This document shows positions 8,725 to 61,426 of a stretch of DNA of 64,000 bases, one piece after another. The first letter of the stretch is position 1, and each line of letters starts with the position of its first letter. The notes below the pieces were generated by a model. The model was not told where the DNA came from. It worked only from the letters and a program-made list of their open reading frames with translations, and did not search any database. This DNA is from an uncultured Gammaproteobacteria bacterium (GTDB lineage Bacteria; Patescibacteriota; Microgenomatia; Daviesbacterales; UBA10151). Position numbers and translations under genes: made by a program. The stretch lies in contig CAZFYQ010000002.1 in assembly GCA_964523905.1 (NCBI GenBank), positions 2,177 through 66,176 of the forward strand. The letters are read 5' to 3'.

Positions 8725-10872
8725 TTAGACTGTTGCACATTCGTACACTTCTGTTATGGCAGCAGCATATAATCGTTGTAATTCTTCAGGGCTGATAGTT
8801 ATTGCTGGTGGAATTACAGAATAAAGATCAGCGTTATCTTTAAAAGCAATTTTAATTGGATCAGTAATTTCATCTCCTTTTTTGGAAGCTTGAACATAAG
8901 TCCACCATCCTGTTTCTGGTGTTCCACCTCTTCCTTCTTCAGCACGAAGCTGATTAGCTACACGTAGTCCGTATTGTCTTTCAGCATCAGTCATATCTGG
9001 GAATCCTGCTTTTCTAAATAATTGGTCGGCTTTAGTAGAATAACCTTTGAAGATTGGTTTGCCGTCAACCCATTTATAAGGATGCTTAAACCACCGCATA
9101 CCCTCACCTCTATAAAGTGTTTGTTTATGGAGTGTATCAACTTGTTTTTTACCATCTACCAGTTCGTCTTTCAGTTCTCCTTCTTCTGTGCAGAGAACTT
9201 TTTTAAGGTTGGTTAGGATTAATAGTTCTAACCAAATTTGATCCTGTAGACTGGAGAATCTTTTAACATCTCCACCTGGAATAATTTTGTAACCTCGATC
9301 AAGGGTAATATTGTATGTCTGTTTATCAAGAGCTAGGCTAACATGAGTTTCACCTGTTTGTCTGTCAAATTTGAAGGTAGCATTTTGGTAACCCCTCTTC
9401 CTGGTATTAGGATCAAAAGAAATCCGATAACCTCTTTCACCTAAAGATCTTGTATAAATAGTCTGGATTTGTCTCCTTGCTTCCTGGGTTTTTCTAGAAA
9501 TCTCATCAAATTGCTCAGTAGAAATTACTGGCCTATGATACTCAATAATAGATGGTAATCTTCCAAGCTCTTCTTCTGTATGGGTAGGGAATACAGCAAA
9601 TACTATACTTTTACCAGCATCAAAGAAATCAAACAGACCATTTCTTAATACTGCTTCTGATAAAACTCTTTCCATCGGTACATAGAGTTTTCGCATGGGA
9701 TTGCTGGATTGTCCAGTTAATATAGCTTCTTTAACCTCATCAATAATCCAATTTCTTTGTTCTGCTGAATGGACACGTTGTGCCATTACAACCAGAGATA
9801 AATCATCATTAAGCTGAATAGGATGTTGCGTTTGTATTTCATACCCTTCTTCCTGAAGATCAATTATCTTGTTTTCCCATTTAGCCCTAAAAGCGGGATC
9901 CCCAAATTTATCTAAAACTAGTGTTCTGAGTGGTTCATTAGGGTCTCTTATAACATTATGAGGCCAATCATTGACATTGTGGGTAAGTTCATATCTATCT
10001 CTTCTTTCAGCTGTTTCCAAGAAAGTTCCTGCTGAACCAGGTAATTCCTGAACTAAATACCCCTGTTCTGTATAAACCTCAAATAAAGGTTCGGCTCTGG
10101 ATCCTAGTATAGCTCTTTGATTACCCACTAACTCATCTAATAGTCTTGATTGCACAGGAGGTAAATACCCGCCAGCCACAAATAACCGTAACATATTAGA
10201 TTTTGAACGTTCAGTGAGGGTTCCCACATAATCCATGGCAGTTAGTATAGAATGGAATCTTCCTAAATGTTTATCATCTGTAGCAAAAAATCCTGCTGTG
10301 AAATAAATAGCTGTTGGGGATGTTGCTGCAAGCCAGTCTTTTCTAAAACTTAAAATAGAAAAAAGCTCTCTTTGAACAGTTAAGTTTGAGGTATCTACCA
10401 TTGCCCAAGCAGTGTTGTATAAAAGGTCTATCGCATGATTTACTGATCTAGGGCTAGAAAATAAAGCAGCCTCTATTTTTTCAATATCCTGACCTTGTCT
10501 ACTATCCGAACCAGCAATACGAGTCATAGCCAAATTTAATATTTTCCCAGGGCCCCACATATTTAAATCTAAATTTCGGGCTAAAGCATTAGTTGTATTT
10601 CCAATAATAGCCTCTTTTGCCTCATCTGGTCTTAGATCAGTTCTTACAATGCTAACTACTCCTAAATTGTGAAGAAGTGGTCTTAGTGTTAATGGGTTAT
10701 CAAATATTTGCTGCGTAACTGAATCTAAAATTACTTGTTTTTCTGATGGCTGAGCAGTATGAAGCTCTTCCACGACATTAATAGTATCTTCCATTAATAT
10801 TGCTGGTGGTTGCATGGCCTCAAAATCACTAAGTTGGTTTCTGTCAGGTTCTAACATCAGAAAATTATACAC
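8725..10872 (-). CDS. Hypothetical large protein (715 aa), island operon member
   Basis: Long ORF with no recognisable motif, at the distal end of the minus-strand operon with the helicase-methylase fusion. Its composition differs from the flanking core genes. Confidence 0.6.
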   Translation of the reverse strand: MYNFLMLEPDRNQLSDFEAMQPPAILMEDTINVVEELHTAQPSEKQVILDSVTQQIFDNPLTLRPLLHNLGVVSIVRTDLRPDEAKEAIIGNTTNALARNLDLNMWGPGKILNLAMTRIAGSDSRQGQDIEKIEAALFSSPRSVNHAIDLLYNTAWAMVDTSNLTVQRELFSILSFRKDWLAATSPTAIYFTAGFFATDDKHLGRFHSILTAMDYVGTLTERSKSNMLRLFVAGGYLPPVQSRLLDELVGNQRAILGSRAEPLFEVYTEQGYLVQELPGSAGTFLETAERRDRYELTHNVNDWPHNVIRDPNEPLRTLVLDKFGDPAFRAKWENKIIDLQEEGYEIQTQHPIQLNDDLSLVVMAQRVHSAEQRNWIIDEVKEAILTGQSSNPMRKLYVPMERVLSEAVLRNGLFDFFDAGKSIVFAVFPTHTEEELGRLPSIIEYHRPVISTEQFDEISRKTQEARRQIQTIYTRSLGERGYRISFDPNTRKRGYQNATFKFDRQTGETHVSLALDKQTYNITLDRGYKIIPGGDVKRFSSLQDQIWLELLILTNLKKVLCTEEGELKDELVDGKKQVDTLHKQTLYRGEGMRWFKHPYKWVDGKPIFKGYSTKADQLFRKAGFPDMTDAERQYGLRVANQLRAEEGRGGTPETGWWTYVQASKKGDEITDPIKIAFKDNADLYSVIPPAITISPEELQRLYAAAITEVYECATV

Positions 10873-10892
10873 TATGGGACTAGAAGAATCAA

Positions 10893-11489
10893 CTATGAGA
10901 CTTTAGCAGCTGGCGGTTTTAATAATTCTTCGTATAGTCTTTGCAGTTCATTATCGTCATATTTATGTCCAGCAATGGTTAACAAAAATGCTTGTCTTCC
11001 CTGGAATTCAAAAGGAGATAGTTGACCAGTAGCTTTGTGATGTAATTGAGCCAATACTGCAACCTTGCTGGCAGAAACCTCTGCCTCATCTCCGTATAAG
11101 GGATTTCCTTGATGGTCAACACGTCGAAGCGAAGAGATCATAATATTTTCTGGCCCTTGTGTCTTTACAAATGTTAAAATAATTCCCCGGGAGTTATAAC
11201 AAATAATTTCTCCAGCCTCTAACGCGCCAATTTCTCTACCTCTTGACCCTCCAAACCTGCTCATAGTTTCATCAGCAGTAAAAATCACAGCTTCCTGAAT
11301 ATCAAAAGCCTGCATCCCAACGGTAGTTTCTAATCCTAGAATTTTCGCTTGACCATCATGTAGAGTAGGTTTAACTTTTTCTTTAGTTGGAATATGCGTA
11401 TACCAGTGAGCTGCCAAATCAGGGGCTACGAGTTGTCCTGGTCTATCAAAAAACCTTATTCTTTCAGCATTCATTTCTTCAACATTCAT
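10893..11489 (-). CDS. Hypothetical protein (198 aa), translationally coupled to upstream helicase-methylase gene
   Basis: Its start overlaps the stop of the upstream ORF (ATGA, 11486-11489). Confidence 0.55.
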   Translation of the reverse strand: MNVEEMNAERIRFFDRPGQLVAPDLAAHWYTHIPTKEKVKPTLHDGQAKILGLETTVGMQAFDIQEAVIFTADETMSRFGGSRGREIGALEAGEIICYNSRGIILTFVKTQGPENIMISSLRRVDHQGNPLYGDEAEVSASKVAVLAQLHHKATGQLSPFEFQGRQAFLLTIAGHKYDDNELQRLYEELLKPPAAKVS

Positions 11490-14338
11490 ATTTTTCCTTC
11501 CTGTATGTCGATCAGAATACTTCTTAATTCTCCAAACAAATGTGCAGAATTACTCTGTTCGTTTTCATTATTCCAGTACTGTATAGCCTTAAATGATAAC
11601 TCTTCAGCCATTTTCCAATCTAGAGCCCATCTTCGAATAGCCTCCCTAGTTAAACGCCTAAAAGTACCATATTCTTCCACGCCTAGATATTGCAACATTT
11701 TACTAGTTTCAGTAGAAACTTTTTCACCCTTTGCTAAATCTCTTTCTAATTTATCTTCTTTTGGCGTTGAACCAAAATTAACTATTTCCTCATCACCATT
11801 ATCAGGCGATACAATAATAAACTCCCGATGAGGAACAGGTGGGGCAGTAGTTATGATTCCTTCACCAGAACCGTTTTTATTATTGCCTAATATAACATAA
11901 TCTGCATCAGAGTCAAGTGTAAGAGGGATAGAGTCATAACTATTGCCGATTTGTGCGTCTTTAAATTTTTCTAAATTTAAGATCCAACTAATTGGTTCTC
12001 TCTTAAAATCAGTTGCCCAAACTTCTCCTGATGGGATATTTGACGTTGGCCTAAAACCAAAATCTGCTAGGGCTTTAATCCAAGCGTTAAACTGCTCACC
12101 TGTCATATAATTATGAGGAAGAGTAATACTTATTTTTCCACCTAATTTAAGAGTTCGATTTAGTTCTTTAAAAATTCTGGCTCTTTCAGAAAGCAAAACA
12201 CCCGCCTTATCATATCTAGGAGTATTATTGCTCCAGTGAATTACCAGGGAAAGATCCATGATATCAATGCTATTTGCTAAAATAGGCAAGTGAGCGGCTT
12301 CTCCGGTTACATATTGACCTTCTGTACGTTCTCTGGCCTTGGCTACTTGTAAAACTTCCTGCATCATATCTATATTGATGATTTTTTCTCCTAGCATGAT
12401 TTGTAATATACCCGCGCCTGCACCAACACTGGCAATTTTTACATCCCCACCTGTTTCTTCTTTAAATCTGTTAATTACTTGTGAAACCACTCGGGCATTA
12501 TGGCCAGCAAGACTATATTCATCATCTTTGGAATAATAAGTTGCAAAAAAATCTGCATTAGACATACCTTCAAATCCTATTTGTCTTAAAAACTGCCTAT
12601 TTTTTTCATATCCTTGAGCTCTAGTACCAGGAAAGAATTTATTAATCAAATACATTCTAGGGGTCATTGGGTAAAGACTTTGTATAACTACGCCTCGGCT
12701 ATGTGCCTTAACAAAGATTTCTTCCTCTTCTGTCAAGGGAATTCCATCTAAAACCATCTGTGAAATTAATTTCTTATATTCCAAGGCTTGGGCAATACCT
12801 TCATCAATAAAACCATAATGGGTATTGGTTGGTTCATCAGGATGAGTGGCGCGAAGAGTAATGGCTCTTACAGGAATAGTTTGTCCAGTGTTTTCATTAC
12901 GCCCCCAAGTTTGTTTTTTATCGGCATATGTATCTGGCTCATCGATATGAAATTGAATAACTTCCTCAAATTGGGCATTGGCGGCAATTGGAGGAATACT
13001 CAAGTCAATCCCTAACCTACTTGAACGCATTGTTAAAAGACTAATTAAATTTGTTGGATCAAACCTAATAGTACGAATGGCTCTTTCTCTTTCAGAAATC
13101 TCGCCTCTTCTAGGATGAGCGGAAACATTTCCATCAATTCTGGGAATGTTTTCTCCATACCAGGTTCTCAAATAATCATATAGAGAAAAAAAGGCACTAA
13201 GATCGTCTTCAAATACTGTTTCTTCCAAAGGTGAAGTGACTGAACTGGCATAAAAAGCTGAGAAAATTTCAACTTTACTTTTTCCAGCAGTTACTAGCTT
13301 ATCGAGTCTTTTCTTGAGATGAATATACTTACTGGAGTAAAGGCCTTCTTTACCTGTCCAATGCTCCTGTAAGGATCTATCAGGGGATGATTTGACTAAA
13401 GAGTCCATGCCATTGGGAAAGTTGAAAAAAGCCCAAATAGCTAAATTATCGAAACCGATTCTTACTAGGAAATCTTCATCAAAAATTTCAGCAGGGTTTT
13501 GATTTAATTTCCATTGTATAAATTGTTTTGTTGCTTCTGATAAATCTTTTTGAGCATCATCAATAGTATATAAGCCACTAATATTGGTAGATCTTGCTTC
13601 AAGTCCTTTAATTTGATTTTCAATTTTTGCTCTGGTTTTATCATCCATGCTATCTGTTTCTAGTCTACCTTTAAGTTTTGACATCATTTGGGCAACACCA
13701 TCAGGGGAATAGAATTTTCTAATTAACATCGGATCTAATGAAAGTTGCCTTAATATTTGTCTTTTAGTGATACCTTCAGGTAAGTTATCGTGATATACAA
13801 AATCATATAATGCCTTATGAAATAATGTTAACGGAACAGGTTCTACTCTTATGTCAAGTTCTGGCAATTTATCTCTAAGAATTGAATACTTATTCCATCT
13901 AGTTAGAATTCCTCTGCCATGAAGTAAACCGGAAACTAAATATGGATCATTTCTGGCAGCTCTAGTGAAATCACCCTCTTTGGGATAATCATAAGGCAAT
14001 ATAATTCTAACCGGTGAATCTAAGTCTTCTACACCATTTACTACTGCTGTGGCAGTCATAGCAATTCTAGGAGCTTCTTTTGGTAGCATTCGAGAGATAA
14101 AATGCATTAATTTAGTACAAGTAGCATCGTAATTATTTGCTAGATGAGACTCGTCATCTACTAACGAATCTACATCGGCTTTTTTAACTAGTTCACTGAG
14201 TAGTTTAAAAGAACTGTCCTTGATTCCTAAAGTACTTAATAATGAATATCCTATGATTACATACCTGGGTTTATTATCCTTGGGGGTATTTACAAATTTT
14301 TTTAAATCAGCAGTACCGACAATGGTTATAACCTCCAC
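11486..14338 (-). CDS. SNF2-family helicase (motifs Ia-VI) fused to class I SAM-dependent methyltransferase; C-terminal 950-aa portion of a frameshifted gene
   Basis: DESH (motif II) and TATAV (motif III), a helicase-C region (SSRLGIDL, QTWGR..GQ), then a SAM-binding motif VGAGAG. The reading frame continues upstream of the GTG start as ..KKHTLVVCPPGKT.. (SNF2 motif Ia) until it meets the upstream ORF. Confidence 0.75.
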   Translation of the reverse strand: MEVITIVGTADLKKFVNTPKDNKPRYVIIGYSLLSTLGIKDSSFKLLSELVKKADVDSLVDDESHLANNYDATCTKLMHFISRMLPKEAPRIAMTATAVVNGVEDLDSPVRIILPYDYPKEGDFTRAARNDPYLVSGLLHGRGILTRWNKYSILRDKLPELDIRVEPVPLTLFHKALYDFVYHDNLPEGITKRQILRQLSLDPMLIRKFYSPDGVAQMMSKLKGRLETDSMDDKTRAKIENQIKGLEARSTNISGLYTIDDAQKDLSEATKQFIQWKLNQNPAEIFDEDFLVRIGFDNLAIWAFFNFPNGMDSLVKSSPDRSLQEHWTGKEGLYSSKYIHLKKRLDKLVTAGKSKVEIFSAFYASSVTSPLEETVFEDDLSAFFSLYDYLRTWYGENIPRIDGNVSAHPRRGEISERERAIRTIRFDPTNLISLLTMRSSRLGIDLSIPPIAANAQFEEVIQFHIDEPDTYADKKQTWGRNENTGQTIPVRAITLRATHPDEPTNTHYGFIDEGIAQALEYKKLISQMVLDGIPLTEEEEIFVKAHSRGVVIQSLYPMTPRMYLINKFFPGTRAQGYEKNRQFLRQIGFEGMSNADFFATYYSKDDEYSLAGHNARVVSQVINRFKEETGGDVKIASVGAGAGILQIMLGEKIINIDMMQEVLQVAKARERTEGQYVTGEAAHLPILANSIDIMDLSLVIHWSNNTPRYDKAGVLLSERARIFKELNRTLKLGGKISITLPHNYMTGEQFNAWIKALADFGFRPTSNIPSGEVWATDFKREPISWILNLEKFKDAQIGNSYDSIPLTLDSDADYVILGNNKNGSGEGIITTAPPVPHREFIIVSPDNGDEEIVNFGSTPKEDKLERDLAKGEKVSTETSKMLQYLGVEEYGTFRRLTREAIRRWALDWKMAEELSFKAIQYWNNENEQSNSAHLFGELRSILIDIQEGKI

Positions 14339-14406
14339 TGATTCTTCATATGCTTCACGAACCTCGGCTGCCCAGTCGTAGACTGTTTTTCCTGGAGGGC
14401 AAACTA

Positions 14407-15378
14407 CTAGAGTATGTTTTTTGCCCCGGCTTTTTCCATTGCATATATAGCACCTTTTGTTTTCTGGGTTTTTGTATCTCCAATTAACAAATCCGTCATG
14501 CCGATCCCACTAGTTTTATGGGTAAATCTGTAGGCATATTCTTTTTGATGCCTGGAAGGGAAAGGAAAAGAAGCTGTTCTCTCGTCTTCGGGAATATCTT
14601 TTTGAGCTCCGGCAATAATTCTTCTAAAAACTACAGGCACTTCATCTTCTTCAATATTTCTAAAATGCCTTTCCAAATTTTCCACAAATTGCAGCTGAAC
14701 TGGATTTTGAACTTCGGTTTTTAGATGATTAAGATAAGCAAAACATTTATCAACATCTTGATTATAAATTTCCAAAACTGCATCTCTTTCAGCTTGAGTT
14801 AAAATATCTAGTACTAAACCATCTTCAAAAAGTTCTTCTGGTAACTCTGGTAGAGGAAGAAGTTTTGGTCCTTCCGCCTCTCTTTTATAGAATCTTCTGG
14901 GTCCTAAATATTCACCAACTAATCTATATGTTCCGCTGATTAGAGTTTGTTTTGTTTGTTCATCAGCATCTCTGTAACGTCTGATACCGACTATTCTTGC
15001 CATTTGCAATTGAGTTACATACGGGCTTAGCTTTTCTATTAGGTCATCCTCTTGAGTTAGTAGATCTTTGGCCCGCTCATACCTTTGGAACTCGTCCATT
15101 TCCTGCTCTTCTCTTAGCTTATAACCTTTTCCAGTACACCAAATCCTGAATTGATTTAAAGCGTCAGGATTCCCTATAAAGTTGATAATATTAAATACTT
15201 CCTGTGGCCTAACTTCAAAATTTGCGACACTACGACAGGCAGTGAATCCTACTTGTTCTTCAGGTATAAATTCAAACAACTGAGTCATTTTTGCCCTGGT
15301 AATTTCCTGACCATTAGACTCTCGACCAATTGGGGTAGGGTCCTCCCTATAAGATATAATTCTTGGCTGTCTTTCCAT
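14407..15378 (-). CDS. N-terminal 323-aa portion of the SNF2 helicase-methyltransferase gene (ends 3 codons after an A AAA AAC tract)
   Basis: Ends with a degenerate SNF2 motif-I-like segment GIGMTDLLIGDTKTQKT. The downstream ORF continues the helicase in the -1 frame. Confidence 0.65.
   Translation of the reverse strand: MERQPRIISYREDPTPIGRESNGQEITRAKMTQLFEFIPEEQVGFTACRSVANFEVRPQEVFNIINFIGNPDALNQFRIWCTGKGYKLREEQEMDEFQRYERAKDLLTQEDDLIEKLSPYVTQLQMARIVGIRRYRDADEQTKQTLISGTYRLVGEYLGPRRFYKREAEGPKLLPLPELPEELFEDGLVLDILTQAERDAVLEIYNQDVDKCFAYLNHLKTEVQNPVQLQFVENLERHFRNIEEDEVPVVFRRIIAGAQKDIPEDERTASFPFPSRHQKEYAYRFTHKTSGIGMTDLLIGDTKTQKTKGAIYAMEKAGAKNIL
14416..14423 (-). other. A6 homopolymer / A_AAA_AAC heptamer at the junction of the two helicase ORFs (candidate -1 frameshift site or indel)
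   Basis: The minus strand reads gca aaa aac ata ctc tag. Shifting -1 at AAAAAAC joins ..EKAGAK to KHTLVVCPPGKT.. with no intervening stop. Confidence 0.5.
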
Positions 15379-15444
15379 TTTGCAGATTTTACCATAAATA
15401 AGCTTATAGTTTCAATACCTAATGCTATTTTCATAAAATCATAT

Positions 15445-15473
15445 TTGACAGAAATGATAAGCATATGTTACAC
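15445..15473 (+). promoter_or_regulatory. Sigma70-like promoter (TTGACA-17-TTACAC) for divergent island gene
   Basis: A perfect -35 and a plausible -10 lie just upstream of the ATG at 15475/15487. Confidence 0.4.
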
Positions 15474-15474
15474 T

Positions 15475-17529
15475 ATGGGACCGAATATGAGTATTGATAG
15501 ACTTAATGAAGATTTGGCCAGATGGAATCAAAGTATTGATGTTGTTAGTAACAGATCAAAACTTTTTGGTACCGTAGAAGGCCCTGAACAATATAGATAT
15601 GATTTAGCCACATCCCCTGTGGAAAAATTAGGACGCGTTAAAGAGGTTATGCGGGTGAGGACAATAATTTCAGAGGTTAGTCTTCCTAGACTCAGAGAAA
15701 AGGTTGAGGATATTCAAGTTAAAATTGAACATGAAGAGTTTAAAATAAATGTAAGAAATGGGATTATGGCAGAATTTGGCATTGAGGAATTAGAAAGAGC
15801 GCATCAAGCTGGAACATTGACTGATTTTGATTTACAAGTAGTTTCAGATGCAATGGAACAGGAAATAAGAATTCGATCAGGAGAAGCTCCCCCAATAGTG
15901 AATCCCATTTTAGAAAAACCAAAGACAGAACAAGCTCCTAACCCAGCTAGAGTAGATAATGAGAAAATATTTAGCGTCACATTTCCTAATGGAAATACTG
16001 CTGAGGTTACAGATGAAAGAGATTCAAAAATACTAGGAATCCTTTCCCAAGCAATGGATGGTATGCAAAACGGCGCTATAGATATTCCACAGGATGTAAT
16101 TGTCCGGGGAGTTTTTAATAGATTTGAAGTAGGTTTAGCAGAAGACATCAGAGATAGACTCGCAGTACATGCGCAAACAGTCGATTCAGTAGGATATCAA
16201 ATTGACAGAATTGACCGAATGCCTTCAGAGCAGCATGATCGAAGATTAAGACATATCTATAGAGTTCAAGAGAAGAAACCACAATCTCCTACTGAGCGGC
16301 ATCCTTCCCCTGGAGCTAATCCAGCAGAACCAGATAAAGCTGCAAGAAGAAGTGAAGAGGAAACTCTTTCTGAATCGGAGAAAGTATTAAAGGCATTAGA
16401 TCTTTTATTAGCTGATGAAAATATAGAAGCAGCTAGAGTTGTAGATCTAATGACAGAAAGATTAGAGAAAAATTTAGGAGTTGAAGGGGTAAATCTCCTA
16501 AATACAGTAAGTTATTTAATAAAAGAATTAAATGATATTTTTGATTGCTTAAATACAGATAGAATATATCAGCCTCAGCTGGCTCTATGGGAAAGAATTC
16601 GTATTTCGTCTGGACAAAGTGAAGATTTTCTGGCTAAAAAATTCTTTGAGACAAGAGTTAAAAACTGGTATAACAGAATGGTCAATGAAGATGGTAAATC
16701 CGCTTCAGTTACTGCAACAAAAGAAGGGGAGTTATTGATAAAAAGAGCAAGGGTATATGGTGCATTTCCATTTGTTTTAAGTAATGGTGGAACATACATT
16801 GCCAAAGGTGGTGTTGCGAAAAACTTAATGGAAGTATTAATCATGAATGAAGGGCAAGGACTTACTGCAGAAATATTAGGAATGTTAGCGTACGGTGTCG
16901 GTAAAAATGAGGCTGAGAAAAGATATAATACTAAATCTGCACGGTCAGCTGCGAATAATCTTAGACTTGATCCAGAATTAGCAGAAGTTGGCTATGAGGT
17001 TGTATCCATATTGCCCGAGGGTAGACAAAGGAGTCCGGATACTAAATTCATGCTCAGGCCGATTCCAGGTGTAGCACCAGAGGCTCATAAATCAACAAAA
17101 ACTGTTATTCTAGCTGGAGCTCCAGCATTAACAAGTCCTGAGCCTGAAGGTGCAGATGTAGATGTGCCACAACGAAAAGAATCCGCTAATAAAAATCAAT
17201 TAGAGGCGGAGCTAATTCAAGTAATCGCAGAGTTTGATCTTGTAAATCAGCCTGAATTTTTGAATGGTGCGCAAGTTACTAGGGTGGTGCATAATCTAAC
17301 CGCTCAAATGCAACGTAAATTAGTTGATGAAGGTAAATATCTTCAGCCTCACCATACTGAGGGTAAACTTTGGTTTTTTACATCCAAGCAGATAGCTCAG
17401 ATGGTTTTAATCATAGATCGTATGCGAAGTGGAGGAGTTAGAAAAGATTTCCTGAAGGATTTATTTGAAGTTACTGACCGTGCATATAGTAAAGCAGAAA
17501 TAGCCGCCATTATTATGGCAAAATCCTAA
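15475..17529 (+). CDS. Hypothetical acidic protein (~685 aa), divergent from helicase-methylase operon
   Basis: The ORF-track start at 15253 overlaps the opposite-strand gene. The internal ATG at 15475 or 15487 follows the promoter. No motif recognised. Confidence 0.55.
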   Translation: MGPNMSIDRLNEDLARWNQSIDVVSNRSKLFGTVEGPEQYRYDLATSPVEKLGRVKEVMRVRTIISEVSLPRLREKVEDIQVKIEHEEFKINVRNGIMAEFGIEELERAHQAGTLTDFDLQVVSDAMEQEIRIRSGEAPPIVNPILEKPKTEQAPNPARVDNEKIFSVTFPNGNTAEVTDERDSKILGILSQAMDGMQNGAIDIPQDVIVRGVFNRFEVGLAEDIRDRLAVHAQTVDSVGYQIDRIDRMPSEQHDRRLRHIYRVQEKKPQSPTERHPSPGANPAEPDKAARRSEEETLSESEKVLKALDLLLADENIEAARVVDLMTERLEKNLGVEGVNLLNTVSYLIKELNDIFDCLNTDRIYQPQLALWERIRISSGQSEDFLAKKFFETRVKNWYNRMVNEDGKSASVTATKEGELLIKRARVYGAFPFVLSNGGTYIAKGGVAKNLMEVLIMNEGQGLTAEILGMLAYGVGKNEAEKRYNTKSARSAANNLRLDPELAEVGYEVVSILPEGRQRSPDTKFMLRPIPGVAPEAHKSTKTVILAGAPALTSPEPEGADVDVPQRKESANKNQLEAELIQVIAEFDLVNQPEFLNGAQVTRVVHNLTAQMQRKLVDEGKYLQPHHTEGKLWFFTSKQIAQMVLIIDRMRSGGVRKDFLKDLFEVTDRAYSKAEIAAIIMAKS

Positions 17530-17982: not shown

Positions 17983-18378
17983 TTAGGGAGTAGGTCTTTT
18001 GAAAGTAGTCCAGGCCATTGATAGTTTATATAATTGCCTGCCTGTCTGGTCATACATTTTAATTAACTCATTTATTAATTCGACTTCTATCTCATAAATA
18101 TCTTTAATTTGTTCAAGGCTAACAATAGTTTCATTACATTCTCCCATGGCATCATCAATATATTTTTGAAACCCCATTTTTTGATGTCTCTTAGCATAAC
18201 CTTCTGCAATTAGTCTGGGAATAGCTTTACATGATCTACTGGTCTGATCTTTTAAGTCGTATTTTTCAGAATCCGGAAGTTTAGGAATGATTCTTTTCAT
18301 CACCTGGAGCATGCATTGGTATGAATTTTGGTAAACTTGTAAATCTCTAAAGCTGGTAATTGGTTTTTTGTTTTCCAC
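17983..18378 (-). CDS. Four-helix-bundle protein (TIGR02436 family; Avd-like / 23S rRNA IVS protein family)
   Basis: N-terminal ITSFRDLQVYQ...EKYDL.DQ..RS..AIP..IAEGY matches the four-helix-bundle family signature. Confidence 0.7.
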   Translation of the reverse strand: MENKKPITSFRDLQVYQNSYQCMLQVMKRIIPKLPDSEKYDLKDQTSRSCKAIPRLIAEGYAKRHQKMGFQKYIDDAMGECNETIVSLEQIKDIYEIEVELINELIKMYDQTGRQLYKLSMAWTTFKRPTP

Positions 18379-18433
18379 ACCTTACCCCTTTACTCTAAAC
18401 TATACTGGTTTCTTAACCCAATAACCACTAACT

Positions 18434-18462
18434 TTACCATCAGAAAGCTGCAGTAGTATAAT
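18434..18462 (+). promoter_or_regulatory. Sigma70-like promoter (TTACCA-17-TATAAT)
   Basis: Consensus -10 with a 17-nt spacer, upstream of a small ORF that has a strong SD. Confidence 0.5.
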
Positions 18463-18498
18463 AATTTCATGATTCGGAAAGTTAAGGAAGGTTACAGA

Positions 18499-18603
18499 GT
18501 GGTGGCGGAATCCGGGCGGAATATGGGGACTTATCCTACTAAAGAGCAAGCTGAAAAAAGATTAAAACAAATCCAAATGTTTAAGCACATGCGTAAGGGT
18601 TAA
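18499..18603 (+). CDS. Candidate small ORF (34 codons, GTG start) MVAESGRNMGTYPTKEQAEKRLKQIQMFKHMRKG
   Basis: SD AAGGAAGG lies 7 nt upstream of a GTG, with the promoter above it. It falls below the ORF-track size cutoff. Confidence 0.35.
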   Translation: MVAESGRNMGTYPTKEQAEKRLKQIQMFKHMRKG

Positions 18604-18669
18604 GACTACTTGTTATCCTCTTGGCCAGAACTCTTGACTTTCGGGTAAATTATGGGGTAAGGTAAATAT

Positions 18670-19497
18670 ATGGGTAAAAGCAAGAAAATTGTTGTTAAAG
18701 GCATAACAGTTACGGTAATACCTAATCAAACAAATGACTACATTTCCCTAACCGATATGTTAAAAGCCAAAGATGGAGACTTTTTTATCTCTGATTGGCT
18801 AAGAAATAGAAATACTGTAGAGTTTCTTGGTATTTGGGAAAGAGTTAACAATCCAAATTTTAATTACGGCGAATTTGCCATAATTAAAAGTCAGGCCGGA
18901 TTAAATAGCTATAAATTAAGTGTTAAAGAATGGGTAGAAAAAACTAAAGCCATTGGGTTAAGGGCTACCGCTGGTAAATACGGTGGAACATATGCTCATA
19001 AAGATATTGCCTTTGAATTTGGAATGTGGATTAGTCCTGAATTCAAGATTTATTTAATTAAAGAATTCCAAAGATTAAAAGAAGAAGAGAATGAACGATT
19101 GCGACTGGGTTGGGATTTAAAGCGAACTTTGGCGAAAGTTAATTATAAAATTCATACGGATGCAATTAAAGAACATTTAATTCCCAAGAAAATTAATAAA
19201 GAAGCAGAAACAATTATTTATGCCAGTGAGGCAGATGTTTTAAATGTAGCTTTATTCGGAATGACAGCTAAAAACTGGCGTGATGAAAATCCAAAGCAGG
19301 AGGGTAATGTAAGAGATTACGCTTCAATTGAACAGCTGATAGTTTTGACAAATCTAGAAGGAATAAATGCTGAATTTATCAGACAGGGCTTATCACAAGG
19401 TGAAAGACTAATAAAACTTAATGAAATTGCCATTTTCCAAATAAAATCTCTTCTTAATAATCCTACTATGAAAAAGTTAATTCAAAAAAGAAAATAA
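18670..19497 (+). CDS. KilA-N domain protein
   Basis: The N-terminal ~130 aa match the KilA-N domain (YISLTDMLKA, AGKYGGTYAHKDIAFEFGMWISPEF) found in phage and mobile-element proteins. Confidence 0.8.
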   Translation: MGKSKKIVVKGITVTVIPNQTNDYISLTDMLKAKDGDFFISDWLRNRNTVEFLGIWERVNNPNFNYGEFAIIKSQAGLNSYKLSVKEWVEKTKAIGLRATAGKYGGTYAHKDIAFEFGMWISPEFKIYLIKEFQRLKEEENERLRLGWDLKRTLAKVNYKIHTDAIKEHLIPKKINKEAETIIYASEADVLNVALFGMTAKNWRDENPKQEGNVRDYASIEQLIVLTNLEGINAEFIRQGLSQGERLIKLNEIAIFQIKSLLNNPTMKKLIQKRK

Positions 19498-19500
19498 CTC

Positions 19501-19526
19501 ATGTCCACATTGTATTTTCCCAAAAA
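19501..19526 (+). repeat. 26-bp direct repeat copy 1 (atgkccacattgtattttcccaaaaa)
   Basis: 25/26 identical to 20241-20266, and duplicates the first 8 codons of the DUF4258 gene. Confidence 0.8.
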
Positions 19527-19610
19527 CCCACCTAATTCTATTTTTAATTTCAAGCTTTTTTCTTACTTTTTTCTAAATAGATGTTGACAGTTAGTTGATA
19601 AAGTTTAACA

Positions 19611-19868
19611 ATGAAAGTATACTTTGTACCCATGCCAAAAGCTTTAAAAAAATATATTTCTCGAGATAAAGACATTCTGGGTGGAACACCTGTAATTTCT
19701 GGTACCAGAATCCCTATAGAACGAATCTATGAACTTATAAAACAAGGTGAGCCTTTGGAAAAACTGCAAGCTGATTACTCATGGGTAGATAAAAAGAAAA
19801 TTCAATTTGTAATTGCATATTTAATGGAAGCTGGACTTAATGAGTACAAGAAAGTCCAAAAAATATAA
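19611..19868 (+). CDS. DUF433 domain protein (antitoxin-like)
   Basis: ILGGTPVISGTRIPIERI matches the DUF433 core, and it overlaps the downstream DUF5615 gene. Confidence 0.75.
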   Translation: MKVYFVPMPKALKKYISRDKDILGGTPVISGTRIPIERIYELIKQGEPLEKLQADYSWVDKKKIQFVIAYLMEAGLNEYKKVQKI

Positions 19869-20229
19869 GTTGCTCCTTGATGAAGGGCTGCATCTGCCCA
19901 AGTCTTATCCGAAAACAAATCAATATTACGATTTAAAACATATTTCTCAGACTAAATTTAGAGCTAAACCGGATGCGGATATCTACCAATTGGCTGATAA
20001 TGAAAAAAGATTCCCGGTGGTATTTAACACAAAGGATTTCAAGCCCCTTATCTCAAAAAACAGAATGTCAGTCATTGCATTATCAACAAACTTAACAGAT
20101 AAGGAAGCTGATCTTAAAATATCAAAATCCTTAAGAGAATTATCTACTATGCAGGAAAAGGGATGTCTAATATCAATTAGTAAGACAGGAATTACGATCA
20201 AACTTTCTCAAAATACAGTGGAGAATTAA
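19840..20229 (+). CDS. DUF5615 (Mut7-C-like RNase fold) protein, toxin-like partner of DUF433
   Basis: N-terminal KLLLDEGLHLP and a C-terminal NTKDF motif. The DUF433-DUF5615 gene pair is widely conserved. Confidence 0.65.
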   Translation: MSTRKSKKYKLLLDEGLHLPKSYPKTNQYYDLKHISQTKFRAKPDADIYQLADNEKRFPVVFNTKDFKPLISKNRMSVIALSTNLTDKEADLKISKSLRELSTMQEKGCLISISKTGITIKLSQNTVEN

Positions 20230-26445: not shown

Positions 26446-26886
26446 GTGAAATGTCCTTTCTGTGCAAGCGATTTAAGCAAAGTAGTTGATAAAAGGTCAG
26501 TAACTGGACGGGGTGAAATCAGAAGACGAAGGCAGTGTCTTAAGTGTGATAAAAGATTTACCACGTATGAGTCTTTGGCTCAACTACAACTGGCGGTGCT
26601 AAAAAAAGACGGCACCAGACAGGCATTTGATGGGGAAAAGATTAGGAGAGGGTTAATTAGGGCTTTGGAAAAACGGCCGGGAATAGAAAAAGTGGGCACT
26701 ATTGTGGATCGGATTGAAGGTAGAATTAGGGCTAGAAGACTTAGTGAAATTGAGTCAGCCACTTTAGGAAAATGGGTGCTGTCAGAGCTGAAAAAATTGG
26801 ATGCGGTGGCATATCTTCGATATGTTAGTGTCTACCGATCTTTTGGAGACTTAAAAGACTTTAGTAAAGAATTAGAAACACTATGA
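26446..26886 (+). CDS. nrdR: Transcriptional repressor NrdR
   Basis: A zinc ribbon KCPFC...CLKC followed by an ATP-cone. GTG start chosen to give the canonical MKCPFC N-terminus; the ORF-track start is 26413. Confidence 0.85.
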   Translation: MKCPFCASDLSKVVDKRSVTGRGEIRRRRQCLKCDKRFTTYESLAQLQLAVLKKDGTRQAFDGEKIRRGLIRALEKRPGIEKVGTIVDRIEGRIRARRLSEIESATLGKWVLSELKKLDAVAYLRYVSVYRSFGDLKDFSKELETL

Positions 26887-59495: not shown

Positions 59496-60770
59496 CTATC
59501 TAACCAACCACCCGTTAAATATAGTATTGGAGCTTTCTGTTGGACCTTGTTGATAAAATGGGGTCAACTGCTTTGTATCTAAACTAATTGTATAATAAGT
59601 GCCGGTATTTGTAATACCTTTTGTTTTATCAATAGGTATATTCCCTAAGGTTAATACCCCAACAAACAGATATTTACTATCTGGTGACCAGGCAGCAGTA
59701 TTGATGTCATTACCTGTAGGCTCTTCCAGTAAAACATCTGGCTTATTAGTTTTTAAATTGAAAAGATATAATTTTGAGCTATTTGGAGCTTCAACAAAAG
59801 AGAGATAATTATTATCTGTAGAGATACTGAAGTTTTGAGGATTTGTATTATTACCCATATCAAATAATTCTTTCTCAGTTCCGTTACTCAAATTAATCTC
59901 AACAATTTTTTGATTACTCATGGGCACCGAATAACCGTTTATGTTTGAGGAACCAATTGTTTGCTTGATGAGATAACCCTTTGAAAAATCAGATGTTAAT
60001 ACAGAAGGAATGTCCCCATTAGTAGATATTGTTTTTTGTTGACCATTAGATAAATCTATAGTTACTAGTTTTTGAGCAACATTATTCCCATTTTTTTCTG
60101 TGAGAATTCCATATATGATATTTTTATTAGCATCAAAGCCTAAGAGTTTAAATTTTAGGGAGGTTTGGCTTGGTACAGGAATGTTAATTTTTGTCTTAGT
60201 ATTATTACTACCATCCTTATTAACAATGTATAAGCTGTGTTTTGCCGATTTAAGAAAATTGTTAATATCACTGATTCCTAAAACTATATAGATAAATTTT
60301 TGGCTGTTGCTGGACCAAATAAAGTCATCAATTGCATCATAGGTAGTTGCTTGAAAAACTTTCCCTGGTTTTAAAATTTGCTGGCTACTAGATATTTCTA
60401 GATTTTTAGGAAATCCAATCCCTCCAGAAACGCCGCCGGAGAGTTTCGCCACATATTTTCCATCTGGTGAGGGAAGATAACCTACGGTACTGCTGGAACT
60501 AGCTTCTAAGGTAACTTTATTTAATCCTCCTTGTTCAGCCATATAAAAAGAAGGCCTAATAAATTGTCTATCTGAATAAATAATTTCATATTTGGGAGCG
60601 GGGGTTGGTAAAGGTAGGACCTTTGATCCGATTTGGTTAGGTAATACATTTTTATAAAAGATAAACCATCCTCCCAAAATTCCTAATATAATTATGATCC
60701 CCAAAATGATGGCTACTGAAGCAAAACCTTTTTCTTTATTCATTAATTTACTGTAATTGTTGCTGTACAA
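59496..60770 (-). CDS. Membrane-anchored periplasmic beta-propeller protein (TolB/PD40-like repeats)
   Basis: N-terminal TM helix and WSPDSKYL-type PD40 repeat signatures. Confidence 0.55.
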   Translation of the reverse strand: MYSNNYSKLMNKEKGFASVAIILGIIIILGILGGWFIFYKNVLPNQIGSKVLPLPTPAPKYEIIYSDRQFIRPSFYMAEQGGLNKVTLEASSSSTVGYLPSPDGKYVAKLSGGVSGGIGFPKNLEISSSQQILKPGKVFQATTYDAIDDFIWSSNSQKFIYIVLGISDINNFLKSAKHSLYIVNKDGSNNTKTKINIPVPSQTSLKFKLLGFDANKNIIYGILTEKNGNNVAQKLVTIDLSNGQQKTISTNGDIPSVLTSDFSKGYLIKQTIGSSNINGYSVPMSNQKIVEINLSNGTEKELFDMGNNTNPQNFSISTDNNYLSFVEAPNSSKLYLFNLKTNKPDVLLEEPTGNDINTAAWSPDSKYLFVGVLTLGNIPIDKTKGITNTGTYYTISLDTKQLTPFYQQGPTESSNTIFNGWLVR

Positions 60771-61426
60771 ACATCGGATTCCAAGCCAGCATGGGTTTGT
60801 AAATGCATTTTGGCAGTATAATTTCCGCTACTGGAAAAAGTATAGGGGGAGGGATGCTGGCTTGAAGTATCATAAGATGTATCCCAGTTGCCGTCACCAT
60901 TAAAATCCCATTGCACATTAGTTACATAATCGTTACCTCCATAACCGGTGTTATACCAGGAAGCTCCATAGACAAAGTTTACTGATAAAGGTGCAGGGCC
61001 ACTGGAAGGAGTAGTCTGTATTAGACAAACTACCTTAGGAGATGGAGTAGGGGTAGCAGTAGGAGGTGGTATAGGAGTGGAGGTAGGAATTGTAGTGGGA
61101 GCTGCTGTCTGGGGTCTGGTAGTAGGGGTTGGGGATAATTGTTGCGTACTTGTCGTGTTGGTGTTACTACTAGTGGGCTTGGTAGTTGGGGTGGGAGCTT
61201 TTGTTGGAATAATTGTTGTTGATTTAGGTGCAGCTGTTGCTGTCGGAGTTCTTGTGACAGATGTATTTGCATTACTACTAGCTAAGTTGGTATCGCCAGT
61301 GATAGGAGTAGGGTTTTTAGTATTTGATCCAAGTGTGATCCAGGCAATTGCGCTGCCAATAATCAGGAATGACCCGGCAGCCAAAAGTACAAGTATTATT
61401 GGAACAAAACCTTTTTGGGTAGGCAT
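60743..61426 (-). CDS. Membrane-anchored Thr/Pro-rich protein with C-terminal PKD domain
   Basis: TM helix, a TPTPT linker, and the PKD signature WDFNGDG. Confidence 0.65.
   Translation of the reverse strand: MPTQKGFVPIILVLLAAGSFLIIGSAIAWITLGSNTKNPTPITGDTNLASSNANTSVTRTPTATAAPKSTTIIPTKAPTPTTKPTSSNTNTTSTQQLSPTPTTRPQTAAPTTIPTSTPIPPPTATPTPSPKVVCLIQTTPSSGPAPLSVNFVYGASWYNTGYGGNDYVTNVQWDFNGDGNWDTSYDTSSQHPSPYTFSSSGNYTAKMHLQTHAGLESDVCTATITVN

What the first reader, a model, noticed from the sequence alone, without database searches (positions are those of the whole stretch)
14339..14510. SNF2 helicase-methylase gene split by a -1 frameshift at an A AAA AAC heptamer
The 323-aa ORF ends 3 codons after the sequence gca-aaa-aac (minus strand). 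The -1 frame of the 950-aa ORF is open upstream of its GTG all the way back to this point and reads ..KKHTLVVCPPGKTVYDW.., a good SNF2 motif Ia. The upstream ORF ends with a motif-I-like segment. A -1 slip on A_AAA_AAC (the classic X_XXY_YYZ shape) would give a single fused protein of about 1290 aa. Alternatives are a homopolymer sequencing or assembly error, a genuine pseudogene, or phase-variable expression of a defence gene through the A6 tract.
Basis: seen in the sequence. Interest (0 to 1): 0.6.

Follow-up and report, generated by a model that had tools for sequence, protein, structure and literature searches.

The report
Broken SNF2-methyltransferase gene, not programmed frameshift
A large helicase-like/methyltransferase gene of an uncultured groundwater-type (CPR) bacterium is cut in two by a small insertion or deletion beside a run of six A's; every known relative has it as one intact gene, so this is an ordinary one-off lesion or assembly error, not a designed ribosomal frameshift.

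Summary
On the minus strand a 323-aa ORF (15378..14407) ends three codons after gca-aaa-aac. The next frame is open from 14509 and continues into the 950-aa ORF (14338..11486). Joined, the two give a ~1296-aa protein: an SNF2-fold ATPase plus a class-I SAM methyltransferase. The break lies inside the first RecA lobe, between motif I and motif Ia.

The programmed-frameshift reading is not supported:
- All other family members that cover this point read through it in one frame. That is about 26 full-length proteins of 1269-1319 aa, 13 independent loci, and every representative in an exhaustive search of 1.84 billion proteins.
- None of the sequenced loci has the heptamer.
- No RNA structure lies 3' of the heptamer (z = +0.4), and Rfam finds nothing.
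- A_AAA_AAN occurs in frame 40 times in this window.
- A -1 slip would add a residue that no orthologue has. The window carries a 2-nt surplus against its closest relative.

Best reading: a recent, lineage-specific indel at or beside the A-run. It is either a real inactivating mutation (most likely) or an assembly error. Trace -1 slippage on the low-efficiency A_AAA_AAC heptamer is possible but unproven. The "defence gene" label is also unsupported. Interest is low.

The parts
14407..15378 (-). 5' fragment ORF (323 aa): family-specific helical N-terminal domain, strand beta1, the P-loop (motif I, GDTKTQKT) and its helix. It ends AGAKNIL*.
   Evidence: The start MERQPRIISYREDPT matches the orthologue L010 (MERGPKIISYREDPT). 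It aligns to residues 1-322 of the 1255-1313-aa relatives. Secondary structure is taken from the model of P0002.
14416..14422 (-). Heptamer A_AAA_AAC in the 0 frame (Lys-Asn codons). The A6 run is 14417..14422.
   Evidence: The loci read at DNA level have 3-5 A's here, for example ACT AAA ACC, GCA AAA ACC or GCC AAG GCA, and none has a slippery heptamer.
14411..14424 (-). Junction zone GCA AAA AAC ATA CT, where homology to the family passes from frame 0 (G-A-K) to the -1/+2 frame (T-L-V-V). It holds 2 nt more, or 1 nt fewer plus one extra codon, than every orthologue.
   Evidence: Protein alignment. DNA alignment with L001 shows a 2-nt gap opposite 'AT'. Codon comparison of 13 loci.
14404..14409 (-). 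Premature 0-frame stop TAG, followed by a second in-frame TAG. In the true frame these bases are C-TA-GTA-GTT (Leu-Val-Val).
14339..14415 (-). Conserved coding segment that belongs to neither annotated ORF: (H)TLVVCPPGKTVYDWAAEVREAYEES, which is strand beta2 / motif Ia. It is translated only if the frame is changed.
   Evidence: It keeps the family-invariant residues C326, P327, W335 and E338. There is no ATG/GTG/TTG in this frame between 14509 and 14338.
11486..14338 (-). 3' fragment ORF (950 aa from the GTG): the rest of SNF2 lobe 1 (DESH box, MTATAVVN), lobe 2, a class-I SAM methyltransferase domain and a C-terminal domain.
   Evidence: It is 62-66% identical to L010/L001, with no further stops or frameshifts.
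14510..14512 (-). Last stop codon of the downstream frame. It sets the 5' limit of the 100-nt zone (14509..14410) in which both frames are open.
15386..15415 (-). Promoter-like site (TTGAAA, 18-nt spacer, TG-TAAAAT) just upstream of the gene's ATG. This is a consensus match only.
10893..11489 (-). Conserved 198-aa partner gene, intact. Its start overlaps the stop of the SNF2-MTase gene.
   Evidence: An orthologue follows the SNF2-MTase gene in 14 of the 16 loci; the other two end inside or just after that gene. No hit in Pfam, NCBIfam, PADLOC or PDB.
8725..10872 (-). Conserved ~715-aa partner gene, intact.
   Evidence: Orthologues lie downstream in 11 loci, and L004/L011 carry 3 copies. It is 58% identical to P0039. 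No family hits.

Best explanation
This is a single, recent, lineage-specific indel in a gene that is normally one ~1300-aa ORF. It is not a programmed recoding site.

The lesion. Relative to all orthologues, the window carries two surplus nucleotides in GCA-AAA-AAC-AT-ACT. Possible histories are A4 to A6, or an AT/TA/CA insertion beside the A-run. Less parsimoniously, one A was lost from an A7 run in a lineage that had gained a codon.

The consequence. The ribosome reads ...GAKNIL and stops at TAG 14409..14407. That yields a 323-aa fragment holding only the N-terminal domain, strand beta1 and the P-loop helix. The remaining 975 codons have no start codon until GTG 14338. Motif Ia is therefore lost, and an ATPase core cannot form from independent products.

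My commitment. I take this to be a real inactivating mutation captured in this genome: a very young pseudogene or null allele. At most, trace full-length protein comes from unstimulated -1 slippage on the low-efficiency A_AAA_AAC heptamer.

Shown: the split, its exact place, the single-ORF state of all relatives, and the lack of stimulators.
Inferred: that the indel is real and not an assembly error, that it is recent, and that the gene is functionally off.

The confidence given (0.5) is for the real-mutation reading specifically. 'Non-programmed indel, real or artefactual' taken together is about 0.8.
For: 1. Single ORF is the rule.
- 26 of 29 hits are proteins of 1269-1319 aa. The exceptions are the window's own 950-aa ORF, P0002 and P0026 (1142 aa), and the last two both read through the junction.
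- P0002 (66% identity, the closest relative) looks shortened only because of a run of N in its scaffold.
- All 13 loci that cover the junction are in one frame there.
- An exhaustive phmmer search with the 323-aa ORF found 14 representatives. Among the family members (E up to 7.5e-09), none apart from the window's own protein ends at the junction.

2. The break is inside a fold.
- It lies in the loop between the P-loop helix (H326-336) and strand beta2 (E342-346) of RecA lobe 1, in the model of P0002 (pLDDT 83).
- That model is an SNF2 fold (Foldseek probability 1.0 against ISW1, SNF2h, INO80, CSB and Rad54).
- PF00176 is matched across the junction.

3. Length. All orthologues have G-x-K-x-[T/P]-L-V-V. 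Frame 0 gives GAKN and the other frame gives (H)TLVV, so a 2-nt surplus restores the family length and a -1 shift does not.

4. Recency.
- There is no other stop or frameshift in 3.9 kb.
- Identity to L010 is as high after the break as before it (50-79% against 56-78% per 100 aa).
- The untranslated 25-codon segment keeps four family-invariant residues.
- Both partner genes are intact.

5. No recoding apparatus.
- Folding the 86 nt 3' of the heptamer gives z = +0.41, and 137 of 200 shuffles fold as well.
- In the 171-nt fold, the only local hairpin consumes the heptamer itself.
- No Rfam element is found.

6. Assembly quality. The assembly is otherwise clean. The large genes (RNR, Lon, H+-PPase, SecA, FtsK and others) match their Pfam models end to end. 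This junction is the clear outlier in a frameshift-signature scan. A 2-nt non-homopolymer error would be unusual for a short-read consensus (general knowledge).
Against: - No reads or second assembly of the same strain could be examined. The only independent contig of this organism (Logan SRR9179560, L017, 100% identical over 1577 nt) stops 2.8 kb short of the site. An assembly or consensus artefact is therefore not excluded.
- The gene is otherwise perfectly preserved, which is what one would also see if the break were not real or were functionally bypassed.
- The indel sits on a bona fide slippery heptamer. IS1 uses A_AAA_AAC without a known stimulator (PMC4066793), so some rescue is mechanistically possible.
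- CPR genomes are streamlined, and this cassette looks vertically inherited. Loss of such a gene would be somewhat unexpected.
Confidence: 0.5

Rival explanations
1. Assembly or sequencing artefact. The organism's real gene is intact, and the 1-2-nt discrepancy beside the A-run arose in base-calling, consensus building, or local mis-assembly of a strain-mixed metagenome bin.
For: - The source is evidently a metagenome-assembled genome of an uncultured CPR bacterium. Relatives are Daviesbacteria/Roizmanbacteria MAGs, and the 137.8-kb contig is held only in NCBI.
- The discrepancy touches a homopolymer.
- The gene shows no other decay, and the untranslated segment keeps the invariant residues.
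- All relatives are intact.
- A Logan contig of the same strain diverges at one end, which hints at strain heterogeneity in the sample.
Against: - The rest of the 64-kb window shows no comparable frameshift signature, even though it holds 185 A/T runs of 6 or more. One further, weaker candidate junction (61426..59496) was not followed up.
- The most parsimonious difference is 2 nt, which is not the typical single-base homopolymer error.
- A6 is short for Illumina-type errors (general knowledge).
Confidence: 0.3
2. Functional -1 ribosomal frameshifting on A_AAA_AAC. This could be truly programmed, or 'compensatory' slippage that keeps a broken gene partly working. It would give the 323-aa product plus some ~1297-aa fusion reading ...GAKNHTLVV....
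For: - The heptamer has the X_XXY_YYZ form in the correct frame, 3 codons before the stop, and a -1 shift is the direction needed.
- A_AAA_AAC is a proven bacterial shift site in IS1 with no established stimulator (PMC4066793).
- In E. coli it gives more than 0.10% frameshifting without stimulators (PMC4066793).
- The downstream 975 codons are intact.
- Compensatory frameshifting is documented in small-genome symbionts (PMC5009743).
- The extra residue would fall in a surface loop before beta2.
Against: - It is not conserved. No orthologue read at DNA level has the heptamer, and no relative has the split.
- There is no 3' hairpin or pseudoknot and no Rfam frameshift element.
- The G-rich stretch lies only 1-2 nt upstream. 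That is not the roughly 10-14 nt spacing that stimulates -1 shifts in dnaX (general knowledge), and this genome rarely uses Shine-Dalgarno sequences.
- The motif is described as 'of low efficiency' in E. coli.
- 40 in-frame A_AAA_AAN heptamers occur in ordinary genes of this window.
- The product would be one residue longer than every family member.
- A 323-aa fragment ending after a P-loop helix has no obvious use as the major product.
Confidence: 0.08
3. Phase-variable (contingency) expression. The A-run changes length at high frequency, switching a defence-type gene on and off.
For: - The frameshift is at an A-run.
- SNF2 proteins occur in defence systems. Some family members give weak PADLOC hits to DrmD, ZorD and DpdE, with a best E-value of 1e-9.
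Against: - A6 is far below the tract lengths of about 8-9 or more that drive phase variation (general knowledge), and it is one of 185 runs of 6 or more in the window.
- The tract is only 3-5 A in the relatives read at DNA level.
- A 1-nt change gives a length the family never has.
- The window's protein has no specific PADLOC hit, and its partners have none.
- The methyltransferase is of the generic BioC/UbiE-like class I type, not matched by a DNA-methyltransferase model.
- The cassette sits next to D-Ala-D-Ala carboxypeptidase and L,D-transpeptidase genes in the window and in L007, L008 and L010, which indicates vertical inheritance.
Confidence: 0.03
4. Genuine gene fission. The 323-aa and 950-aa products are made separately and reassemble into a working enzyme.
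For: A distant relative is naturally split into two translationally coupled ORFs with an ATGACTAA overlap. This is seen on two independent contigs, L015 and L016, so the family can tolerate a fission.
Against: - That fission is at residue ~665, in the long helical region between the two RecA lobes (model of P0002). It is not inside lobe 1.
- Here there is no start codon for 57 codons of the downstream frame, so 25 conserved residues, including motif Ia and four invariant positions, would be lost.
- No promoter-like site lies near 14338, and no Shine-Dalgarno-like sequence precedes the GTG.
- No other family member ends or starts here.
Confidence: 0.03

Closest known systems
Frameshifted pseudogene or assembly indel in a bacterial MAG (the ordinary case)
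   Same: A single indel at or beside a short homopolymer. There is a premature stop a few codons later, the downstream frame is intact, and all orthologues are single ORFs.
   Different: Nothing distinguishes it so far, except that the indel happens to leave a canonical slippery heptamer in frame.
IS1 insA-insB' -1 frameshift at A_AAA_AAC (also IS3/IS911 and dnaX at A_AAA_AAG)
   Same: The heptamer is identical to that of IS1. The shift is -1, the 0-frame stop follows shortly after, the fusion product carries the catalytic part, and IS1 also lacks a known stimulator (PMC4066793).
   Different: In IS1 the two-ORF layout and the heptamer are conserved across the family, and the upstream product (InsA) has a function of its own. 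Here the layout is unique to one genome, the upstream product ends inside a RecA fold, and the shift adds a residue that no homologue has.
Compensatory frameshifting or transcriptional slippage in reduced genomes (Buchnera/Blochmannia poly(A) tracts; 'savior' indels; PMC5009743)
   Same: A small-genome, host-associated-type bacterium with an indel in an A-run of an otherwise conserved gene.
   Different: In the bacterial transcription-slippage examples the review gives, the runs are 9 As or Ts; here the run is only A6. No evidence of rescue is available.
Defence-system SNF2 proteins (DISARM DrmD with DrmMI methylase, Zorya ZorD, Dpd DpdE)
   Same: An SNF2-type ATPase associated with a methyltransferase activity. 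Many family members give weak PADLOC hits.
   Different: The hits are generic SNF2 similarity (best 1e-9, and none for the window's own protein). The methyltransferase is of the generic class I type (PF08241). The partner genes DrmA/B/C or ZorA/B/C are absent, and the actual partners (~195 aa and ~725 aa) are unknown families. The locus is syntenic with cell-wall genes.
Eukaryotic and bacterial SNF2 translocases (ISWI, SNF2h, INO80, CSB, Rad54; Sulfolobus Rad54-like 1z63)
   Same: A two-lobe RecA core with SNF2-specific helical insertions. Foldseek gives probability 1.0 and target TM-score up to 0.76. PF00176 is matched in 27 of 27 members. A DExH box and a P-loop lysine are present.
   Different: Sequence identity is very low (12-16%). 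The P-loop is atypical (GDTGTMKT against the usual GLGKT). The ~290-aa helical N-terminal domain is unique, and a methyltransferase is fused at the C-terminus.

Membership tests
Programmed -1 ribosomal frameshift site | Slippery heptamer X_XXY_YYZ in the 0 frame within the overlap of the two ORFs | tested here: met
   A_AAA_AAC at 14422..14416, 3 codons before the stop. Such heptamers are common here, however: 223 in frame per 20,392 codons.
Programmed -1 ribosomal frameshift site | Stimulatory RNA structure (hairpin or pseudoknot) 5-9 nt downstream | tested here: not met
   The 86 nt 3' of the heptamer fold at -18.5 kcal/mol against a shuffle mean of -19.8, z = +0.41. The 171-nt context gives z = -0.61, and its local hairpin pairs the heptamer itself. 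Pseudoknots were not explicitly modelled.
Programmed -1 ribosomal frameshift site | Upstream Shine-Dalgarno-like stimulator at about 10-14 nt (dnaX/IS911 type) | tested here: not met
   Only GGGG lies 1-2 nt upstream, and GGAAAAAG at about 10 nt is weak. Gene starts in this window mostly lack Shine-Dalgarno sequences.
Programmed -1 ribosomal frameshift site | Conservation of the two-ORF layout and the shift site among orthologues | tested here: not met
   Apart from the window's own ORF, all 28 database proteins read through the junction, as do the 13 loci that cover it; none of those loci has the heptamer. An exhaustive search finds no other family protein ending there. No same-species genome was available.
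Programmed -1 ribosomal frameshift site | Demonstrated trans-frame product | not testable with these tools
   This needs proteomics, ribosome profiling or a reporter assay.
SNF2/Swi2 family ATPase (SF2) | SNF2-rel_dom profile match above the curated threshold, spanning motifs I-III | tested here: met
   PF00176 scores 29.3 bits against a cut-off of 24.9 at residues 313-525 of the joined protein, and 27 of 27 members match. Neither fragment alone matches.
SNF2/Swi2 family ATPase (SF2) | Two RecA-like lobes with SNF2-specific insertions (fold) | tested here: met
   The AF2 model of the closest relative, P0002, has pLDDT 83.4 and pTM 0.79. The listed Foldseek PDB hits are almost all SNF2 remodellers, with E down to 2.6e-16 and target TM-score up to 0.76.
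SNF2/Swi2 family ATPase (SF2) | Catalytic motifs: P-loop lysine and DExH box | tested here: met
   T304/K306 and D408/E409 are invariant in the family and present in the window (GDTKTQKT; DDESH). ATPase activity itself was not tested.
Class I SAM-dependent methyltransferase | Methyltransf_11 profile match above threshold | tested here: met
   PF08241 scores 39.2 bits against a cut-off of 21.2. The weak NCBIfam and PDB similarity is to BioC/UbiE-type enzymes. The substrate is unknown, and no DNA-methyltransferase model was matched.
Known anti-phage defence system (DISARM / Zorya / Dpd) | Specific PADLOC model hits for the SNF2 protein and presence of the system's other genes | tested here: not met
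   The window protein gives only mad2 at E = 0.003. Family members give generic DrmD, ZorD and DpdE hits no better than 1e-9. The neighbours have no PADLOC hits.
Phase-variable contingency locus | Long simple-sequence tract whose length varies between strains or reads | tested here: not met
   The tract is A6, one of 185 A/T runs of 6 or more in the window. Relatives read at DNA level have 3-5 A. Read-level variation was not testable.

The most novel reading that the evidence does not exclude
The indel is real, and the organism still makes a small but useful amount of full-length enzyme by unstimulated -1 slippage on A_AAA_AAC. That would be a 'pseudo-pseudogene': compensatory frameshifting in a streamlined CPR bacterium, analogous to IS1 transposase dosing or to rescue in endosymbionts. 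It would also throttle a vertically inherited SNF2-methyltransferase cassette of unknown function.
Probability: 0.07. Interest if true: 0.5.

Novelty: already known. Interest (0 to 1): 0.15.

Why it matters
As it stands, this matters mainly for annotation. The two ORFs should be described as one disrupted gene (pseudogene or frameshift), not as two proteins and not as a recoding event.

If the minority reading were true, it would be a first hint of compensatory frameshifting in Candidate Phyla Radiation bacteria.

Separately, the gene belongs to a small family of about a dozen 50%-identity clusters. It is part of a conserved, uncharacterised three-to-four-gene cassette in Microgenomates-type bacteria. 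That cassette may deserve study in its own right, but not because of the frameshift.

Tried and rejected
1. Looking for the same strain or species to see the state of the site.
- Exact look-up of the 950-aa product found no contig on record.
- A protein-pattern scan of JGI metagenomes with the joined protein found nothing.
- A word-indexed search with a 261-aa junction query found only the window's own ORF and one fragment.
- The exact look-up of the 198-aa neighbour gave a Logan contig (SRR9179560) 100% identical to the window, but it covers only 9994..11570.
- A text search for that run accession found no paper.

2. The apparent split of the closest relative (P0002, 1072 aa, followed by a 254-aa ORF) looked like a second broken copy. 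It is a scaffold gap of N's.

3. I first favoured a plain 'AT' insertion on the basis of L001. L007 and L014 read G-G-N-H-T-L-V-F (AAT CAT ACC), so an A4-to-A6 expansion is equally good. The exact indel cannot be assigned.

4. Rfam at a permissive threshold gave only chance hits.

5. Function of the partner genes.
- Pfam, NCBIfam, PADLOC and a PDB profile search were all empty.
- The last homologue search for the 715-aa protein returned one hit.
- The single-sequence model of the 198-aa protein is unusable (pLDDT 37).
- The full-length joined protein exceeded the 1200-residue limit, so P0002 was modelled instead.

6. Literature searches for this family in CPR, or for frameshifting in CPR, found nothing relevant.
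Full report
**Observation**

On the minus strand the sequence reads ...ATG GAA AAA GCC GGG GCA AAA AAC ATA CTC TAG TAG TTT GCC....
- The 323-aa ORF (15378..14407) ends ...MEKAGAKNIL*.
- The A6 tract is 14422..14417, and A_AAA_AAC occupies 14422..14416 in the 0 frame.
- The neighbouring (-1) frame has its last stop at 14512..14510. From 14509 it reads ...GKKHTLVVCPPGKTVYDWAAEVREAYEESVEVITIVG... straight into the 950-aa ORF, whose listed start is the GTG at 14338.
- That GTG is the first ATG/GTG/TTG in the frame, 57 codons after it opens. Both frames are open over 100 nt.

The description in the finding is accurate.

**What the gene is**

The window is chromosomal DNA of a low-GC (~38%) bacterium. 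It carries Lon, SecA, H+-pyrophosphatase, FtsK and an intein-containing ribonucleotide reductase. The named relatives of the gene are Candidatus Daviesbacteria and Roizmanbacteria MAGs.

- Neither fragment alone hits an SNF2 model. The 950-aa ORF hits only Methyltransf_11.
- Joined, the protein matches PF00176 SNF2-rel_dom across the junction (residues 313-525, 29.3 bits against a cut-off of 24.9) and PF08241. All 27 aligned family members match PF00176.
- A profile of the family finds the Sulfolobus Rad54-like protein, Mot1 and ISWI in the PDB.
- An AlphaFold model of the closest relative (P0002; pLDDT 83.4, pTM 0.79) matches SNF2 remodellers by Foldseek at probability 1.0 and target TM-score up to 0.76.
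- The P-loop (GDTKTQKT, invariant T and K), the DExH box (DDESH) and MTATAVVN are present.
- The methyltransferase is a generic class-I domain with weak BioC/UbiE-type similarity. No DNA-methyltransferase model is matched.

So "SNF2 helicase-methylase" is right at the fold and family level. "Defence gene" is not shown.

**Where the frame changes**

In the family alignment the consensus is ...YAMEAAG-x-K-x-[T/P]-L-V-V-C-P....
- The window follows it in frame 0 up to G-A-K(-N), and in the other frame from (H-)T-L-V-V-C-P-P-G. The switch therefore lies within GCA AAA AAC ATA CT (14424..14411).
- In the model this is the loop between the P-loop helix (326-336) and strand beta2 (342-346) of RecA lobe 1. 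The break is in the middle of a domain.
- Every orthologue has exactly four residues from the G to the T/P.
- A -1 slip, or a lost A from an A7 run, gives GAK(N/K)HTLVV, which is one residue too many. Removing two nucleotides gives GAKNTLVV or GAKHTLVV, which is the family length.
- The DNA alignment with the closest relative places a 2-nt gap opposite 'AT'.
- L007 and L014 read GGT GGG AAT CAT ACC, so an A4-to-A6 expansion before CAT is just as good.
- The window protein and L010 differ by 12 other indels over ~1300 residues. A lineage-specific extra codon exactly here would have a chance of about 3%.

I conclude that the lesion is most parsimoniously a 2-nt gain at or beside the A-run. A 1-nt loss cannot be excluded.

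**Is the split conserved?**

No.
- Of 29 database hits, 26 are proteins of 1269-1319 aa. The exceptions are the window's own 950-aa ORF, P0026 (1142 aa, reads through the junction) and P0002.
- P0002 looked split (1072 aa plus a 254-aa ORF), but the break is a run of N in the scaffold.
- A further 15 loci were retrieved from GTDB genomes and JGI metagenomes. With L001, all 13 loci that cover the junction are in one frame there, including L010 at 63% identity.
- An exhaustive phmmer search of 1.84 billion representatives with the 323-aa ORF returned 14 proteins. Apart from the window's own, every family member among them (E up to 7.5e-09) continues past the junction.
- None of the sequenced loci has a slippery heptamer at the site. 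They have 3-5 A's there, for example ACT AAA ACC, GCA AAA ACC, GCC AAG GCA.
- One distant relative, seen on two independent contigs (L015 and L016), is naturally split. That split is at residue ~665, between the two RecA lobes, with an ATGACTAA start/stop overlap. It is a proper fission at a domain boundary, unlike the situation here.

**Recoding signals**

- The 86 nt downstream of the heptamer fold no better than shuffles (z = +0.41).
- In a 171-nt context (z = -0.61) the only local hairpin pairs GGGGCAAA with UUUGCCC. It therefore sequesters the heptamer and does not follow it.
- Rfam gives only chance hits.
- The G-rich stretch is 1-2 nt upstream, not at the spacing that stimulates -1 shifts. 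Gene starts here mostly lack Shine-Dalgarno sequences.
- In-frame X_XXY_YYZ heptamers are common in this AT-rich genome: 223 in 20,392 codons, including 40 A_AAA_AAN and 6 A_AAA_AAC.
- In E. coli, A_AAA_AAC is a low-efficiency motif (more than 0.1% without stimulators). It is nevertheless used by IS1, where no stimulator is known (PMC4066793).

Trace slippage is therefore mechanistically plausible, but nothing marks this site as selected for it.

**Real mutation or artefact?**

The gene is otherwise pristine.
- There is no other stop or frameshift.
- Identity to L010 is as high after the break as before it.
- The 25 codons that neither ORF covers keep the family-invariant residues C326, P327, W335 and E338.
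- Both downstream partner genes are intact.

This means the lesion is either very recent or not real.

The rest of the window looks clean.
- The large genes match their Pfam models end to end.
- A scan for frameshift-like ORF junctions singles out this site. One weaker candidate lies at 61426..59496.

A 2-nt difference is not the typical short-read homopolymer error, so I lean toward a real mutation.

I could not reach read-level evidence. The only independent contig of this strain (Logan, SRR9179560; 100% identical over 1577 nt) ends 2.8 kb from the site. Searches for other copies failed.

**Context**

The gene heads a conserved cassette: the SNF2-MTase gene, then a ~195-aa gene, then a ~725-aa gene.
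- The ~195-aa gene follows in 14 of the 16 loci, and the ~725-aa gene in 11.
- L004 and L011 carry three ~725-aa paralogues.
- A divergent ~760-aa gene has matches in L010 and L014.
- The partners have no Pfam, NCBIfam, PADLOC or PDB matches.
- In the window and in L007, L008 and L010 the cassette lies next to D-Ala-D-Ala carboxypeptidase and L,D-transpeptidase genes that are 58-73% identical. This indicates vertical inheritance and argues against a mobile defence island.
- PADLOC similarity is generic SNF2 only.

**Verdict**

The headline interpretation (programmed -1 frameshift) is not supported. The best explanation is a one-off indel in a normally single-ORF gene.

| Reading | Confidence |
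|---|---|
| Real recent inactivating mutation | ~0.5 |
| Assembly artefact | ~0.3 |
| Functional or compensatory -1 slippage | ~0.08 |
| Phase variation | ~0.03 |
| Functional two-piece enzyme | ~0.03 |

This is an ordinary phenomenon, and interest is low. Read pile-ups at 14411..14424 would settle it.

Noticed in passing
window 8725-17529 (8725-10872 -, 10893-11489 -, 11486-15378 -, ~15472-17529 +); also L001-L016: A conserved, uncharacterised cassette in Microgenomates-type CPR genomes: SNF2-like ATPase/class-I methyltransferase (~1300 aa), then a ~195-aa protein, then a ~725-aa protein, in some loci with a divergent ~760-aa gene. The three partners have no hit in Pfam, NCBIfam or PADLOC. 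The family is small: 11 clusters at 50% identity with E below 1e-30 in 1.84 billion representatives.
   Followed up: partly
L015 6960-6990 and L016 6960-6990: A distant relative (40% identity), seen on two independent metagenome contigs, has the same gene naturally split at residue ~665, between the two RecA lobes. The start and stop overlap (..TAT GAC TAA / ATG ACT AAC..), which looks like a genuine translationally coupled fission.
   Followed up: partly
L004 3767-14840 and L011 2767-13820: The ~725-aa partner gene is present in three paralogous copies, one upstream and two downstream of the SNF2-MTase gene. This suggests a diversifying component.
   Followed up: no
window 26883-30641 (+): The ribonucleotide reductase large subunit (1252 aa) is interrupted by an intein with a LAGLIDADG homing-endonuclease domain and carries a C-terminal TSCPD domain.
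   Followed up: no
window 17983-20229: A small accessory-looking cluster beside the cassette: a 23S rRNA intervening-sequence protein (PF05635), a KilA-N domain protein, and an overlapping DUF433/DUF5615 pair that looks toxin-antitoxin-like.
   Followed up: no
window 59496-61426 (-): Two unknown ORFs (227 aa and 424 aa, no Pfam hits) whose frames are both open over 82 nt. The downstream ORF's first start is a TTG 19 codons into its frame. This could be a second frameshifted gene or just overlapping genes. It bears on assembly quality.
   Followed up: no
window gene starts, e.g. 15378 (-), 33206 (+), 35697 (+), 48848 (+): Most gene starts inspected lack a Shine-Dalgarno sequence. The SNF2-MTase ATG lies only about 7 nt after a -10-like TAAAAT, which suggests a leaderless or short-leader mRNA.
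   Followed up: no
L017 1578-1599 against window ~9972-9993: The Logan contig from run SRR9179560 is 100% identical to window 9994-11570, but its last 22 nt do not match. This is either strain heterogeneity or a contig-end artefact. It identifies a public read set that contains this organism.
   Followed up: partly
window 51635-56305 (+): A giant 1556-aa ORF whose only recognisable part is an M48 peptidase domain near the N-terminus (residues 98-185).
   Followed up: no
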